IMG/VR virus record: IMGVR_UViG_3300037501_000255
From: a virus
Lineage: Duplodnaviria > Caudoviricetes
Length of the DNA stretch: 64,000 nt
Strand: one strand, 5' to 3'
Shown: in pieces, positions 41,082 through 44,083 of the stretch
Layout: every line of letters begins with the position of its first letter
Position numbering within the stretch: the first letter of the stretch is position 1
The notes under the pieces: model-generated
The model's input: the letters and a program-made list of their open reading frames with translations, nothing else
Databases searched by the model: none
Told to the model about the DNA's origin: nothing
Program-made: the position numbers and the translations under genes

Positions 41082-41205
41082 TGGGCCCGGTGGGACTCGA
41101 ACCCACACCGCTTTTATTCCAAAAAATGATAACGATTCTCTGTCGTACCCAAAGGGTCAGGTGGTGAGAACCACTAGTTTTGTGCTACCGTTACAACACG
41201 GGCCC
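41082..41205 (-). ncRNA. tRNA-scaffold / permuted Y-module chimera C
   Basis: GGGCCCG/CGGGCCC acceptor, D- and T-arms; internal GGUUCUC..CUGACCC-UUU-GGGUACGA-CAGAGAAUCG-UUAUC. Confidence 0.78.
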
Positions 41206-41917
41206 GTGTATCAATATTAAACCATACTTCTTGATGTCTAAAGTCAAGCTCCTCAGCCTAATTCTCGGCTGCCTCTTTCTCCTATTTGCTGGATGTAGAT
41301 CCAACCTAACTCACGAAGAGTTGCTTGCCTCGCGCATTGCCGAAGCAAGGCCGGCGATTGTTCATCTACTTGCGGAAGGTAGTAGTTGCTCCGCGTTTCA
41401 TGTTGGACACGAGCTTTTTATTACCGCAAGTCACTGTATCCGTCCCGATACGGAGTACATTATCGTAGATTCTGAGGATAATCCGTATGGGGTTCGCCCG
41501 ATACTTATTGATAGGGACCGGGATGTGACAGTGTTTGAGAGTAACGGATTTGAGGGCCAGCCCATGCAATTGTGGAATGAGCAGCTATACGGCTCTCCAA
41601 AGATAGGCTCTACGATAGTCAGTATGGGATTTCCAGGATATTATCTGCAAAACTTTGTTTTCGAAGAGGGTACCGTTCTAGACAAGAGAACTGATAATGG
41701 GGTGCGCCTTATCGTTAGTCGCGGAGTAAGTTATCCCGGAGAATCTGGTGGCCCAGTCATTTCATTGCAGAATGGTCAGGTGGTGGGGTTAGTACATGCA
41801 TTAGCGGAGCGTATTACCCACATAAATGACGATGTTCAAGTTCACAACACTTTAAGTCTGTTAGTTGCTTGGTCTGAAATAAGGACAGTCTTAGAGCAAG
41901 CTCGTAAGGTTAGATAA
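41180..41917 (+). CDS. trypsin-like serine protease (S1), lipoprotein-like signal; probable start near 41233
   Basis: ITASHC, DRDV, PGESGGPV; LFAGC. Confidence 0.9.
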   Translation: MCYRYNTGPCINIKPYFLMSKVKLLSLILGCLFLLFAGCRSNLTHEELLASRIAEARPAIVHLLAEGSSCSAFHVGHELFITASHCIRPDTEYIIVDSEDNPYGVRPILIDRDRDVTVFESNGFEGQPMQLWNEQLYGSPKIGSTIVSMGFPGYYLQNFVFEEGTVLDKRTDNGVRLIVSRGVSYPGESGGPVISLQNGQVVGLVHALAERITHINDDVQVHNTLSLLVAWSEIRTVLEQARKVR

Positions 41918-41932
41918 CTTTAGGAGTTAACA

Positions 41933-42601
41933 ATGCTAATACGTAATATTCTAGCAGCTTTCATGCTGCTTGTAGTCAGCTCTTGCGCTATTTTCCGGCC
42001 GGCGCCAGTACAGGCTACGGTACAAGAATCGCGGGGTGCGGTGACGCACATCCTCTATGGGCAGCGTTCCTGCACAGCATTTCATATTGGGGATGGAAGA
42101 TTCATAACTGCCGCACATTGTTTCGGAGAGGATCTTGGAGGACCCATGGATGAGGTCCGCATGGTCAATGAACGCAATTTTCAATACTTCCCGAAAGTAG
42201 CGAAATTTAATAAGGCAAAAGATCTGGTGCTTTTGCTGGCCCCTGACTTTAAAGGGCCAGCGCTGTCCTTGTGGGATGGTGGATGGGACGGTCACATTCC
42301 GCGCGGAATGGAGCTCGTGGCTCTAGGATATCCTGGGTACTATGGTCTAGATTTCATCTTCGAGCATGGATTTATCAAAGATATAGTTAACTTTGAAGGG
42401 GTCGAGATGGTTGTCTCTGAGGAGGCGTCTTACTCCGGCGAGTCTGGTGGCCCCGTACTTTCTACTGCAAATGGAAAGGTTATCGGTATGGTAGATGCTG
42501 GTATAGAGCTTATTAATTGGCGTCGCTTTCCAATGCATGAGCATGTAAGCATTTCACTATTTGTGAGTGCCATGGAAATACGTGCTTTTCTAGCAAAGTA
42601 A
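41933..42601 (+). CDS. trypsin-like serine protease (S1), tandem paralogue
   Basis: ITAAHC, KDLV, SGESGGPV; VSSC. Confidence 0.9.
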   Translation: MLIRNILAAFMLLVVSSCAIFRPAPVQATVQESRGAVTHILYGQRSCTAFHIGDGRFITAAHCFGEDLGGPMDEVRMVNERNFQYFPKVAKFNKAKDLVLLLAPDFKGPALSLWDGGWDGHIPRGMELVALGYPGYYGLDFIFEHGFIKDIVNFEGVEMVVSEEASYSGESGGPVLSTANGKVIGMVDAGIELINWRRFPMHEHVSISLFVSAMEIRAFLAK

Positions 42602-42798
42602 ACTGCATCATCTACGCGGACGTGAGCGCCGGGATTTCTCGGCGCTTTTCGTTTGCTCGGAAGCGGCACGCAGCTTTTCTTTAAGACTATCCAGTGCCCA
42701 CTTGACAGCGACAACACCATCATGACCTATATCGTAGGCTGATTGCTCTAGGCGCACTTCCTCTATCAGTTCTTCGATTTGTTTTATTTTCATATAAG

Positions 42799-42875
42799 TG
42801 GTTGGGGCGGCAGGACTCGAACCTGCAATAACTGGAATCAAAATCCAGGGTCCTAGCCAATTAGACGACGCCCCA
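42799..42875 (-). tRNA. tRNA-Gln(TTG)
   Basis: CTGGA-TTTTGAT-TCCAG, ACCA end. Confidence 0.95.
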
Positions 42876-42884
42876 GCGAAGTTT

Positions 42885-43200
42885 CCCCGCTATGATTGAG
42901 TCGATGCGCGGGGTGTGCATCTGCCATCCGATCAAATGGCGTTGCTTAAAATGATCGCCCGACGCTAATTTAAGAATAGGCGGTAGCGCAACCATACGCT
43001 ACTTTGCCTCCGAGTTTATAAGGCTCGGTGTCGGCAGTTATTTAGTGACCACCTGATGGCTTAATGGATCCATCACCCAAGTGGTGGTGCCTAACGGGCA
43101 CCAGTCGGTCTTTAGGCGACGGCCTTCCAGTAGCCTAAGCTTCACAGTATCTGGCAATACTTTTCTGCTGCGCACCGTCCGAGGTTTGAGATCTTAGGTG
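42885..43200 (-). ncRNA. candidate multi-pseudoknot ncRNA
   Basis: two H-type pseudoknots at 42885-42957, hairpins CCGAG/CTCGG and GTAGCG/CGCTAC, contains repeat copy 2. Confidence 0.55.
43037..43086 (-). repeat. 50-nt structured repeat, copy 2
   Basis: CACCAC-TT-GGG-TGATGG-A-TCC-ATTAAG-CCATCA-GGTGG-TCAC-TAAATAAC. Confidence 0.85.
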
Positions 43201-43208
43201 CCGTGAGA

Positions 43209-43304
43209 TGGTGGGAGGGGTTGGATTTGAACCAACTTTAACCAGATAACCTTCTTCTATCGGACAATTCAGTCTAGTAGTTGAAGACGGATTTGTCACT
43301 TCCC
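43209..43304 (-). ncRNA. D-armless tRNA-like / permuted Y-module chimera B
   Basis: GGGAAGT..CCGUCUUC..CUAGAC-UGAAUU-GUCCGA-UAGAAGAAGG-UUAUC..GTTGG-TTCAAAT-CCAAC-CCCTCCC-ACCA. Confidence 0.78.
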
Positions 43305-43307
43305 AAG

Positions 43308-43436
43308 TGGTGGAGGGGGCTGGACTCGAACCAGCGACACAGGGCATTTCATGCGATAACCGATTTCTGTCGGAACAGGAGTTCAAAAAGTTGAAATCGA
43401 ATTTGTTCCCTGCTCTACCAACTAAGCTACTCCTCC
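43308..43436 (-). ncRNA. Phe-like tRNA scaffold / permuted Y-module chimera A
   Basis: canonical D- and T-arms, ACCA; CGAUUUC..UUGAAC-UCCU-GUUCCGA-CAGAAAUCGG-UUAUC-GC-AUGAAAU-GC. Confidence 0.85.
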
Positions 43437-43443
43437 AAAAAAA

Positions 43444-43728
43444 TCACTCCAGAGTCATGCAGCTAGTCGGAGGGCTATCGCAAGAAGCGGTGGCCAAATC
43501 AACTTCGCATGTCTTAATTTCCTTGACTGAAGACTTGATATCGTGATCGCATACTCGCTCCGACGCGAGTACTTCAAGACACTCCTCTACAGGCTGACCT
43601 GTGCACTCCGACGCCTTGCTACAATATGCTGCCATCATGGTACGACATGCACCTTGTTTTTCTTCTTGCGATTCCTTGCAGGCAGAAATCGAGAGGAGTA
43701 CAAATACATAAAGCAGGATCTTTTTCAT
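43444..43728 (-). CDS. Cys-rich lipoprotein (myxobacterial style)
   Basis: LSISAC lipobox, 10 Cys. Confidence 0.7.
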   Translation of the reverse strand: MKKILLYVFVLLSISACKESQEEKQGACRTMMAAYCSKASECTGQPVEECLEVLASERVCDHDIKSSVKEIKTCEVDLATASCDSPPTSCMTLE

Positions 43729-43746
43729 TTTCTATTTCCTTTGTTA

Positions 43747-43869
43747 TGGCGGCGACATCCCGAATCGAACGGGAAACGCGCGTTTAACAGACGAGAATAA
43801 TCTTCAATCGGACCTCGGGTCGAGTGGCGAAGATCACTTTTTCGTGTGATACCATTTCACCATATCGCC
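43747..43869 (-). ncRNA. tRNA scaffold / permuted Y-module chimera D
   Basis: GGCGATA/TGTCGCC-GCCA; GAUCUUC..UCGACC-CGA-GGUCCGA-UUGAAGAUUAUU; then CUCGU-CUGUUAA-ACGCG. Confidence 0.83.
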
Positions 43870-43950
43870 ACATGAGGGTGCTTTTTGGTTTTCAGAAGTT
43901 TCCCCCTACGCCTCAGGCAGCTGATAGTTTTCTAACCGCCACCTCAAAAT

Positions 43951-44083
43951 ACTTCCTAGCAGGACTCGAACCCGCACAGATCATATCGATAATTCATACC
44001 ATCGGACAGAGTCAATAACCGGTATGGTCGGCTGGTCACCAGATTTCTCTGGTCGTACTTACCAATTAGTACGATATAGGAAG
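43951..44083 (-). ncRNA. tRNA scaffold / permuted Y-module chimera E
   Basis: CTTCCTA/TAGGAAG, 6-bp D-stem, extra CCAGA-GAAA-TCTGG hairpin; CAUACC..UUGAC-UCU-GUCCGA-UGGUAUGAA-UUAUC; T-arm. Confidence 0.82.

What the first reader, a model, noticed from the sequence alone, without database searches (positions are those of the whole stretch)
41082..44083. Five tRNA-Y chimeras: a circularly permuted Ro-binding module grafted into the anticodon arm of tRNA scaffolds
Seen: each element has tRNA acceptor and T-arm features (four with a D-arm, three with encoded CCA). The Y module appears 3' strand first, closed by a 3-6-nt loop. A: UU-GAAC-UCCU-GUUC-C-GA. D: UC-GACC-CGA-GGUC-C-GA. E: UU-GAC-UCU-GUC-C-GA. 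B: CUA-GAC-UGAAUU-GUC-C-GA. C: CU-GACCC-UUU-GGGUA-C-GA. Each is flanked by a complementary upper stem (CGAUUUC/GAAAUCG, GAUCUUC/GAAGAUU, CAUACC/GGUAUG, CCGUCUUC/GAAGAAGG, GGUUCUC/GAGAAUC) and then UUAUC or UUAUU. Established: in YrlA the RNA ends form the Ro helix and the acceptor stem is closed by a loop. Here the topology is reversed, leaving a free acceptor end. Inference: potentially chargeable or CCA-tagged tRNA mimics that recruit Ro60, an apparent circular permutation of YrlA.
Basis: partly seen in the sequence, partly recalled or inferred. Interest (0 to 1): 0.9.

Follow-up and report, generated by a model that had tools for sequence, protein, structure and literature searches.

The report
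tRNAs carrying a Ro60-docking Y-RNA hairpin
Five small RNA genes in the tRNA island of a huge freshwater phage are tRNA-shaped molecules that carry a roughly 50-base hairpin matching the docking site for the phage's own Ro60 protein; this is the known bacterial Y RNA "YrlA" with its strand order turned back to that of a normal tRNA, a form I did not find described in the papers searchable here.

Summary
All five minus-strand elements (A 43308-43436, B 43209-43304, C 41079-41205, D 43747-43869, E 43948-44083) have an acceptor stem, a T arm and a hairpin-closed Y-RNA module: upper stem, asymmetric loop, UU-GAC/GUC-C-GA helix with a bulged C, then UUAUC.

The window encodes Ro60 (5732-7339) and three ordinary linear Y RNAs with the same signature.

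The same architecture recurs in nine other phage contigs. In seven it lies within about 0.8 kb of a Ro60 gene. Covariation supports every helix.

Rfam's YrlA model misses these elements. Its tRNA model reads several as tRNAs with a long insert.

New here: in 8 of 18 elements, removing one 48-56-nt block after anticodon-stem position 26-29 restores a perfect tRNA. A becomes tRNA-Phe(GAA) with A73 and CCA. D becomes tRNA-Asn(GUU) with G73 and CCA. The module is therefore a discrete cassette.

Best reading: tRNA-order Y RNAs, trimmed like tRNAs, that dock Ro60. The main rival is an intron-like cassette that is spliced out.

Ro60 binding, expression and charging are untested. Earlier unchecked notes of this scan report the same kind of RNA on other DNA. 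It is a new variant of a known kind.

The parts
43308..43436 (-). Element A: tRNA-Phe(GAA)-type scaffold carrying the Y cassette. It has an acceptor stem (6/7 pairs), D arm, T arm, discriminator A73 and encoded CCA.
   Evidence: Rfam tRNA 39.8 bits with a 64-nt insert. R3 model 52.8 bits. ARAGORN with the intron option calls tRNA-Phe(gaa) with a 54-nt insert.
43355..43407 (-). Cassette of A (53 nt, after anticodon-stem position 29): A-rich linker, upper stem CGAUUUC/GAAAUCG, loop, UU-GAAC-UCCU-GUUC-C-GA, GUUAUC.
   Evidence: Deleting exactly this block gives a 76-nt tRNA-Phe(GAA) with stem GGGGC/GCCCU and loop AUGAAAU.
43209..43304 (-). Element B: minihelix-type scaffold (acceptor 5/7, no D arm, T arm, ACCA) carrying the Y hairpin at 43245-43290. 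It starts 3 nt after A's CCA.
   Evidence: R3 model 50.8 bits.
41079..41205 (-). Element C: tRNA-like scaffold (acceptor GGGCCCG/CGGGCCC 7/7, irregular D arm, T arm, ACUA end) with a degenerate Y hairpin at 41128-41173 (GGGUA-C-GA, two mismatches).
   Evidence: R2 found it at 23.6 bits before it entered any seed alignment. The 47.6 bits with R3 is circular, because C is in the R3 seed.
43747..43869 (-). Element D: tRNA-Asn(GUU)-type scaffold carrying the Y cassette. It has an acceptor stem (7/7), D arm, T arm, discriminator G73 and encoded CCA.
   Evidence: R3 model 47.3 bits.
43794..43842 (-). Cassette of D (49 nt, after anticodon-stem position 28): AAAAAGU, upper stem GAUCUUC/GAAGAUU, UC-GACC-CGA-GGUC-C-GA, AUUCU.
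   Evidence: Deleting it gives a 74-nt tRNA-Asn(GUU) with stem CGCGU/ACGCG and loop CUGUUAA. ARAGORN -i offers a different reading, Glu(ctc).
43948..44083 (-). Element E: tRNA-like scaffold (acceptor 7/7, long D-type arm, CCAGA-GAAA-UCUGG hairpin in the anticodon-arm position, T arm, no CCA). The Y hairpin at 43988-44026 lies in the variable-region position. E starts 2 nt after the CCA of tRNA-Pro.
   Evidence: (aligned by the model at 9.7 bits).
40650..40723 (-). Linear Y RNA Y1 (GGUC-C-GA ... UUGACC, upper stem UCUGUGG/CCACAGU, AUUAUC). It lies directly 3' of a 52-nt mini tRNA-like element.
   Evidence: Rfam nematode sbRNA model 32.6 bits and Y_RNA 20.6 bits, both below gathering. Fold. Descriptor L score 14.
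40780..40863 (-). Linear Y RNA Y2, directly 3' of tRNA-Val.
34165..34237 (-). Linear Y RNA Y3 (GGUCCGA UG UGGUUCA GUUAUC ... UUGACC).
5732..7339 (-). Ro60 orthologue (535 aa; TROVE plus Ro60 vWA domains), the presumed protein partner.
   Evidence: Pfam PF05731 E = 1.9e-44 and PF25045 E = 2e-63. 71 phage homologues in IMG/VR and 365 isolate phages.

Best explanation
The five elements are genes for tRNA-order Y RNAs. Each is a tRNA or tRNA-derived scaffold with free 5' and 3' acceptor ends. Each carries a self-contained cassette of about 50 nt with every sequence hallmark of the Ro60-binding part of a Y RNA. The cassette runs: A-rich linker, upper stem, asymmetric internal loop, a UU-GAC/GUC-C-GA helix with a bulged C capped by a 3-6-nt loop, then (R)UUAUC.

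Shown:
- The architecture is real.
- It is conserved, and its helices covary, across unrelated phage contigs.
- It is physically linked to Ro60 genes.
- It is the circular permutation of YrlA.
- The cassette sits at one structural site. That site is usually after position 27-29 of the anticodon stem; in E and L050 it is the variable region.

Inferred:
- The RNAs are cut out of the polycistronic tRNA transcripts by RNase P and the 3' tRNA-trimming enzymes. A, B and D then end in their encoded CCA.
- They fold into the tRNA L-shape, with the cassette protruding from the anticodon side.
- The phage Ro60 binds the bulged-C helix, as it does in linear Y RNAs.
- The tRNA body plays the part of the Y RNA 'effector loop'. 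It would couple Ro60 to proteins that recognise tRNAs, as is proposed (but still unexplained) for the tRNA-like domain of YrlA.
- A and D keep a full anticodon loop and the matching discriminator base, so they could even be substrates of PheRS and AsnRS.
For: 1. The motifs are present as described, with 5/7 to 7/7 acceptor pairing and T arms.
2. Ro60 lies in the same tRNA island. Three linear Y RNAs there share the GGUCCGA-NN-stem-RUUAUC signature.
3. Covariance models built from the window found the same hairpin in L019, L044, L049, L050, L051, L083 and L101. My descriptor found it in L080. All have 7/7 acceptor stems, D arms and T arms. Seven of these eight contigs carry it within about 0.8 kb of a Ro60 gene, on the same strand. 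The eighth, L019 (G001), is a 43%-complete fragment in which no Ro60 gene was found. The ninth contig counted in the summary is L006, an ambiguous candidate whose record was not held.
4. Covariation of the hairpin: 92.7% of cells are paired, 11 of 13 pairs show compensatory changes, 0 of 500 shuffles reach this, and slid controls reach at most 49%.
5. On a structure-blind MAFFT alignment of 16 full elements, RNAalifold recovers the acceptor stem, D stem, upper stem, part of the lower helix and the T stem. Of 23 pairs, 20 show compensatory changes.
6. The Rfam tRNA model reads A, L049b, L080, L044 and L101c as full-length tRNAs with a long insert.
7. The orthologues L049a and L051a keep the same acceptor stem. 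Their anticodon-like loops differ (GAU against GUU), and the split stem covaries (CC/GG against CU/AG). That pattern is expected of a tRNA mimic, not of a decoding tRNA.
8. Known Ro60 partner RNAs already join a tRNA-like domain to the Ro helix through the anticodon-stem position (10.1101/312249). M. smegmatis YrlA is cut by RNase P and receives CCA in vivo (PMC4201824).
Against: - There is no transcript, processing, Ro60-binding or charging datum. No RNA-seq run holds this DNA.
- In the window the elements lie 34-38 kb from Ro60.
- C has two mismatches in the Ro-type helix, and B has an A.G where U.G is usual.
- The models detect E only weakly (9.7 bits).
- The helix distal to the bulged C is short (3-5 bp) and loop-closed. 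No Ro60 complex with such a helix has been studied.
- Clean removal of the cassette rebuilds perfect tRNAs in 8 of 18 elements. That is what one expects of an intron.
- In the tandem pairs of L049, L051 and L101, neighbouring units share acceptor sequences. A permuted YrlA reading across the junction is therefore also possible (YrlA model 37.9 bits).
Confidence: 0.6

Rival explanations
1. Intron-like cassette. The block of about 50 nt is an intervening sequence in otherwise functional tRNA genes (A = tRNA-Phe, D = tRNA-Asn). It would be excised and the halves rejoined by phage RNA end-healing and ligase enzymes. Ro60 might mark or hold the substrate. The products would be a mature tRNA and a free mini-Y hairpin.
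For: - One contiguous deletion restores a perfect 5-bp anticodon stem, a 7-nt loop with U33 and R37, and a normal length in 8 of 18 elements. The rate with shuffled centres is 0.74% per element.
- A and D have the discriminator bases expected for Phe (A73) and Asn (G73; my own knowledge of E. coli identity rules). Both encode CCA.
- ARAGORN -i calls A tRNA-Phe with a 54-nt intron.
- No other tRNA-Phe lies in this window.
- The same island holds two tRNA-Leu genes split by a different 44-nt insert.
- An RlaP nucleotidyltransferase is nearby.
- Huge phages are known to have unexplained tRNA introns (PMC6784885).
Against: - No known bacterial or phage endonuclease removes such an insert.
- The site (27-29, inside the stem) is not the canonical 37/38.
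- I saw no bulge-helix-bulge motif at the junctions (by eye only).
- At 48-56 nt the insert is far too short for a group I intron.
- B, C, E and about half of the relatives rebuild no tRNA.
- In the Ro60-linked loci the discriminator is C whatever the anticodon. The orthologues L049a and L051a also change anticodon without changing the acceptor stem.
- tRNA-Asn already exists uninterrupted at 34889-34964.
Confidence: 0.2
2. Decoy or sensor. The chimeras imitate particular tRNAs, including their anticodon loops. They would draw or report host tRNA-cleaving defence nucleases, and Ro60 with its exonuclease partners would then deal with the products.
For: - Anticodon-like 7-nt loops are retained beside the cassette. 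They fit the pattern N-U-G-N-N-A-N in A, C, D, L019a/b, L051a, L080 and L101a.
- Phage Ro60-Y RNA complexes can recruit host PNPase (PMC12135203).
- Jumbo phages pair Ro60 with RNA-repair genes (PMC7824862).
Against: This is purely contextual. No nuclease target is known. B and E lack any anticodon-like loop.
Confidence: 0.12
3. Decaying pseudo-tRNAs. Ordinary tRNA genes were disrupted by a selfish or accidental Y-like hairpin insertion and now have no function of their own.
For: C is degenerate in its D arm and Ro helix. C and E lack CCA. The scaffolds are heterogeneous.
Against: - Compensatory changes maintain the acceptor, T, upper and lower helices across unrelated contigs.
- The elements keep a conserved position beside Ro60.
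- Several paralogues per genome each have their own matched upper stem.
Confidence: 0.05

Closest known systems
YrlA (Y RNA-like A; Rfam RF02553; Chen et al. 2014, PMC4201824; Wang et al. 2018, 10.1101/312249)
   Same: A Ro60-partner RNA in which a tRNA-like domain (T arm, D arm, acceptor-type stem) is joined through the anticodon-stem position to the Ro-binding helix. It is encoded near Ro60 and occurs in phages. The order of segments around the circle is identical.
   Different: In YrlA the RNA ends form the Ro helix and the acceptor stem is closed by a loop. Here the ends form a 7-bp acceptor stem (with CCA in A, B and D) and a 3-6-nt loop closes the Ro helix. RF02553 gives no hit at gathering. 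Its only hits are 19-38-bit artefacts across junctions. Some members also keep a complete anticodon loop.
[quoted passage not shown]
   Same: A Y RNA whose tRNA-like domain has an open 7-bp acceptor stem and a CCA end.
   Different: That RNA becomes a two-piece molecule made by cutting a permuted precursor. Here the open acceptor end is genetically encoded in a single chain.
Metazoan Y RNAs and nematode sbRNAs (Rfam RF00019, RF01656)
   Same: The GGUC-C-GA/UUGACC bulged-C helix, a 2-nt spacer, an upper stem and then UUAUC. The window's linear Y1 scores 32.6 bits on the sbRNA model, and one relative passes gathering.
   Different: Those are linear RNAs with an unstructured effector loop. Here the module is closed into a hairpin and the 'loop' is a tRNA.
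'Enigmatic' short introns in tRNAs of Lak megaphages (Devoto et al. 2019, PMC6784885)
   Same: Short inserts of unknown mechanism inside tRNA genes of huge phages. One of them is itself tRNA-like, like the 44-nt inserts at 37572-39531 of this window.
   Different: No Ro60 or Y-RNA motif was reported there. Those inserts were placed by tRNAscan in the anticodon loop, not in the stem.
Permuted (two-piece) versus standard tmRNA (own knowledge; Rfam RF00023, RF04321)
   Same: A precedent that one tRNA-mimic RNA family exists in two circularly permuted gene orders.
   Different: It is a different RNA with a different function. It serves only as an analogy for how such permutations arise, for example through tandem copies like those seen in L007 and L049.

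Membership tests
Y RNA (Ro60-binding RNA) | Conserved helix with a bulged C (5' GGUC-C-GA paired to UU-GACC 3') next to an asymmetric internal loop and an upper stem. | tested here: met
   A, D and E meet it fully. B has one A.G and C has two mismatches. The feature covaries in 17 relatives.
Y RNA (Ro60-binding RNA) | Physically bound by Ro60. | not testable with these tools
   Only linkage is available. Ro60 lies in the same island and within about 0.8 kb in seven other contigs.
Y RNA (Ro60-binding RNA) | The Ro helix is formed by the 5' and 3' ends of the RNA. | tested here: not met
   The two strands are adjacent and joined by a 3-6-nt loop. The RNA ends form the acceptor stem.
YrlA (RF02553) | A score at or above the Rfam gathering threshold (69 bits). 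| tested here: not met
   The window's best hit is 19.1 bits, across C and tRNA-Trp. There is no hit at gathering in seven related loci. A tandem junction scores 37.9 bits. True YrlAs in isolate phages scored 31.7-52.1 bits, also below the 69-bit gathering score, so missing that score excludes little on its own; the segment-order row carries the exclusion.
YrlA (RF02553) | A tRNA-like domain with T arm and D arm and tRNA-type conserved loop bases. | tested here: met
   The T loop is UUCGAGU or UUCAAAU, and the D arm is of the GCUYAGUUGGUAGAGC type.
YrlA (RF02553) | Segment order T arm, then closed acceptor stem-loop, then D arm. | tested here: not met
   The order is acceptor 5' strand, D arm, Y module, T arm, acceptor 3' strand.
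tRNA (RF00005) | Cloverleaf scoring at or above 29 bits. | tested here: inconclusive
   A scores 39.8 bits. B to E fall below threshold. Relatives score 40-47 bits. Default ARAGORN calls none of the five. With the intron option it calls A, C and D.
tRNA (RF00005) | A 5-bp anticodon stem with a 7-nt loop (U33, R37). | tested here: inconclusive
   It is present only as a split stem in A and D, and is restored by deleting the cassette. It is absent in B, C and E.
Archaeal/eukaryal-type tRNA intron | A bulge-helix-bulge motif at the junctions, canonically at position 37/38. | tested here: not met
   The junctions lie after positions 28 and 29, inside the stem. No BHB was seen by eye in A or D. No formal BHB search was run.
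Group I tRNA intron | A ribozyme core of more than 200 nt (P1-P9). | tested here: not met
   The inserts are 48-56 nt. No Rfam intron hit was found.

The most novel reading that the evidence does not exclude
The Y-RNA hairpin is a mobile, position-specific cassette of about 50 nt. It enters the 5' strand of the anticodon stem (positions 27-29) of bona fide tRNAs of several specificities: Phe, Asn, Ile and Pro here, and Lys and Val in earlier unchecked notes. On this reading it defines a new class of tRNA intervening sequence tied to Ro60. Either Ro60 rides on CCA-ended tRNAs that can still be charged, linking the Ro60 system directly to the translation apparatus, or Ro60 together with the phage RNA ligase and end-healing enzymes carries out a previously unknown splicing route. 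It would also suggest that YrlA arose from such interrupted tRNAs through tandem duplication and a shift of the gene boundaries.
Probability: 0.2. Interest if true: 0.9.

Novelty: new variant of a known kind. Interest (0 to 1): 0.72.

Why it matters
The function of the tRNA-like domain of bacterial Y RNAs has been open since 2014. A natural version with real tRNA ends makes concrete tests possible. Two of the copies here have a complete anticodon loop, the matching discriminator base and an encoded CCA. One can now ask whether Ro60 is brought to aminoacyl-tRNA synthetases, the CCA-adding enzyme, RNase P, EF-Tu or anticodon nucleases.

The finding also gives a candidate identity to some of the unexplained short inserts in huge-phage tRNA genes. 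It shows that current annotation tools miss a recurrent class of Ro60 partner RNAs: ARAGORN by default, and Rfam's YrlA model. It further offers a plausible evolutionary route between tRNAs and permuted YrlA.

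Tried and rejected
- A near-identity search of the INPHARED phages found nothing.
- A synteny search with the neighbouring protease found no relatives.
- A hairpin-specific DNA pattern (TTGAC..GTCCGA..T arm) returned mostly tRNA-Ser genes of giant viruses, because GUCCGAG is part of class II D arms.
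- My Python descriptors of the hairpin alone proved unspecific, with about 2 chance hits per window. I used them only together with the T-arm and acceptor context.
- The first two covariance models were too sequence-specific. They missed E and, at first, D.
- Scanning one genome per prokaryote species with the strict pattern gave 50 hits, all chance-like. That pattern therefore gave no evidence for cellular copies.
- An apparent hairpin hit in Streptomyces phage Quaran19 turned out to be the junction of two tandem linear Y RNAs.
- L007's 'UUGAC-G-GUCCGA' is likewise a junction of tandem ordinary YrlAs.
- The promoter and terminator scan was uninformative.
- No RNA sequencing run holds the region, so expression could not be examined.
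- Counting deletion variants that ARAGORN accepts was too permissive to use. I replaced it with a strict stem-and-loop test with a shuffle control.

Full report
**Context.** The window is a minus-strand tRNA island with small ORFs between the genes. No whole genome is held, and no close relative exists among isolate phages. The only sequencing runs that hold the DNA are freshwater metagenomes, and none is RNA.

ARAGORN finds 21 tRNAs, nearly all with encoded CCA. Rfam adds a tRNA-Trp at 40994-41060 and three tRNA hits of about 127 nt. The window encodes:
- a full-length Ro60 orthologue at 5732-7339 (TROVE plus Ro60 vWA domains);
- an RlaP RNA-repair nucleotidyltransferase, ClpB and MnmA;
- IF3.

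**The observation.** Each of the five elements has an acceptor stem: 6/7, 5/7, 7/7, 7/7 and 7/7 pairs for A to E. Each also has a canonical T arm.

Between the two lies a hairpin built as follows: upper stem, a 4-6-nt loop on the 5' side, two pairs (U-A, U.G), a 3-5-bp helix closed by a 3-6-nt loop, a bulged C, GA, a 2-nt spacer, the return strand of the upper stem, and then (R)UUAUC. A, B and D end in NCCA. A, C, D and E have a D arm.

Three corrections apply:
- B is a minihelix without a D arm.
- In E the module sits after a GAAA-capped hairpin, so it occupies the variable-region position.
- C's Ro-type helix has two mismatches.

**Is it more than chance?** A loose descriptor of the hairpin alone is not significant. 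It gives 4 hits against 2.25 per shuffled window. But all hits lie just upstream of T arms that belong to no normal tRNA, and the five upper stems differ in sequence while each matches its own partner.

A covariance model built from A, B and D (R2) found C. It also found similar hairpins in other phage contigs at E = 3e-4 to 0.07 in 1.28 Mb.

**Why a Y-RNA module.** The window holds three ordinary linear Y RNAs: 40650-40723, 40780-40863 and about 34165-34237. They share the signature GGUC-C-GA, NN, upper stem, RUUAUC, then upper stem', NNNAC and UUGACC. The first scores 32.6 bits on Rfam's nematode sbRNA (Y RNA homologue) model and 20.6 bits on Y_RNA, both below gathering.

The hairpin in the five elements is the same module with its two ends joined by a small loop and its 'effector loop' opened. 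From my own knowledge, the GGUCCGA/UUGACC helix with a bulged C followed by UUAUC is the conserved Ro-binding and upper-stem signature of animal Y RNAs.

**Relatives.** A pattern scan of IMG/VR found a 71-kb contig (L002/L019) with three tandem chimeras at its start. They have distinct 7-bp acceptor stems and GCAA-closed hairpins, and tRNAs and a tmRNA follow them.

A search with the window's Ro60 returned 71 phage loci. The final model R3 and my descriptor found the same hairpin immediately upstream or downstream of Ro60, on its strand, in L044, L049 (two copies), L050, L051 (two), L080, L083 (two) and L101 (three). All have 7/7 acceptor stems of different sequence, textbook D arms and T arms. 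A linear Y RNA usually follows before Ro60.

With L006 as a further, ambiguous candidate, that gives nine other contigs. Isolate actinophages that encode Ro60 have the ordinary permuted YrlA instead.

**Covariation.** On the 17-sequence model-guided alignment:
- 92.7% of cells are paired;
- 11 of 13 pairs have compensatory changes;
- no shuffle out of 500 reaches the observed values;
- sliding the partner columns drops pairing to 32-49%.

That alignment is fitted to the model. I therefore also aligned 16 full-length elements with MAFFT alone and ran RNAalifold. It recovers the 7-bp acceptor stem, the D stem, 6 bp of the upper stem, 2 bp of the lower helix and the T stem. Of 23 pairs, 20 show compensatory changes.

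**Relation to YrlA.** Published work describes YrlA as a circularly permuted tRNA: the Ro helix is formed by the RNA ends and the acceptor stem is closed by a loop (PMC4201824; 10.1101/312249). I saw that order directly in G004/L020, L007, Mareelih and Quaran19. The elements here have the same segments in the same circular order, opened at the acceptor stem instead.

Rfam's YrlA model does not detect them. It gives only a 37.9-bit sub-threshold hit across the junction of two tandem units in L049.

One caveat applies. In L049, L051 and L101, neighbouring units share acceptor sequences, so a permuted reading across the junction is also feasible there. In the window (C, D and E are solitary; A and B have different stems), and in L019, L044, L050, L080 and L083, the tRNA-order reading is unambiguous.

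**A discrete cassette.** I tested whether one contiguous deletion between the D arm and the T arm restores a perfect 5-bp anticodon stem with a 7-nt loop carrying U33 and R37. This succeeds in 8 of 18 elements with a clean D arm. The rate with shuffled centres is 0.74% per element.

The blocks are 48-56 nt. They begin with an A-rich run, end in GUUAU(C), and lie after positions 26-29. The rebuilt tRNAs are:
- A: a 76-nt tRNA-Phe(GAA) with A73 and CCA. ARAGORN's intron mode independently calls it Phe.
- D: a 74-nt tRNA-Asn(GUU) with G73 and CCA.
- Relatives: Asn (three), Ile, Pro and a GGA species.

The module is therefore an insert in the 5' strand of the anticodon stem of complete tRNAs. The predicted fold is a three-way junction in which the two halves of the anticodon stem can stack and the cassette protrudes.

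**Interpretation.** I favour stable tRNA-order Y RNAs that dock Ro60 (confidence about 0.6). The reasons are these:
- The module equals that of the linear Y RNAs.
- The genes sit beside Ro60.
- Half of the family has no restorable anticodon arm.
- The Ro60-linked copies share discriminator C73 whatever their anticodon.
- The orthologues L049a and L051a change anticodon (GAU against GUU) while keeping the acceptor stem and co-varying the split stem.
- The established partner RNA YrlA is already a tRNA mimic fused to the Ro helix.

Processing by the tRNA machinery is inferred from position. E starts 2 nt after tRNA-Pro's CCA, and B starts 3 nt after A's CCA. The precedent is M. smegmatis YrlA.

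The intron-like reading (about 0.2) cannot be excluded for A and D. It is interesting because the same island carries two tRNA-Leu genes split by a different, minihelix-shaped insert, together with RNA-repair genes. A decoy role and simple decay are less likely.

**Prior knowledge.** In the searchable library I found no description of a tRNA-order Y RNA. Lak megaphage 'enigmatic' tRNA introns are the nearest report on the tRNA side.

Earlier unchecked notes of this scan describe the same kind of RNA on other DNA: upstream of cyanobacterial rsr, beside a crAss-like phage Ro60, and in phage tRNA-Val and tRNA-Lys. This window is therefore a further, unusually rich instance, with five copies on three scaffold types plus three linear Y RNAs.

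Noticed in passing
window 37572-37701 and 39401-39531 (-): Two tRNA-Leu-like genes carry a nested minihelix of about 44 nt in the anticodon loop: a 7-bp acceptor stem, a 9-nt linker, a T arm and NCCA. Together with A and D, they show that this phage tolerates or uses several kinds of tRNA insert.
   Followed up: partly
window 40722-40773 (-): A 52-nt mini tRNA-like element (short acceptor, one hairpin, perfect T arm, ACCA) lies between Y2 and Y1. Y1 starts 4 nt after its CCA, and Y2 starts 8 nt after tRNA-Val's CCA. tRNA-like units may serve as processing punctuation for the linear Y RNAs.
   Followed up: partly
A, C, D; L019a/b, L051a, L080, L101a (hairpin 3' of UUAUC): The small hairpin next to the cassette has a 7-nt loop that fits N-U-G-N-N-A-N, with G at the wobble position in every case. 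CUGUUAA recurs in unrelated contigs. The reason is unknown; relic anticodon loops or a binding site are both possible.
   Followed up: partly
L019 391-407 and window about 39460-39480 (-): An unusual T-loop, UGCAACU, is shared by chimera L019c and by the minihelix nested in the window's second tRNA-Leu.
   Followed up: no
window 14215-14340 (-), 24222-24319 (-), 35324-35400 (-): Further odd tRNA-like elements: an orphan perfect T arm at about 14245, a 98-nt 'tRNA-Met' with an extra arm, and a borderline Rfam tRNA (29.3 bits) with an oversized anticodon loop.
   Followed up: no
window 41180-41917 and 41933-42601 (+): Two paralogous trypsin-like peptidases with lipoprotein-type signal peptides lie on the opposite strand, in the middle of the tRNA/Y-RNA island.
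   Followed up: partly
L020 (G004) 8081-8671 (-): An 89-kb phage estimated complete by CheckV has a tandem array of six Y-type RNAs next to its Ro60 gene. Three have a T arm and three do not.
   Followed up: partly
L049 270-531, L051 9310-9573, L101 9239-9598 (+): Tandem chimeras share nearly identical acceptor stems. The 3' strand of one unit can therefore pair with the 5' strand of the next. This is a plausible intermediate between tRNA-order and permuted (YrlA) gene orders.
   Followed up: partly
L019 2639-3037 (+); L110 4972-5375: tmRNA genes are embedded in phage tRNA islands that also carry Y-type RNAs.
   Followed up: no
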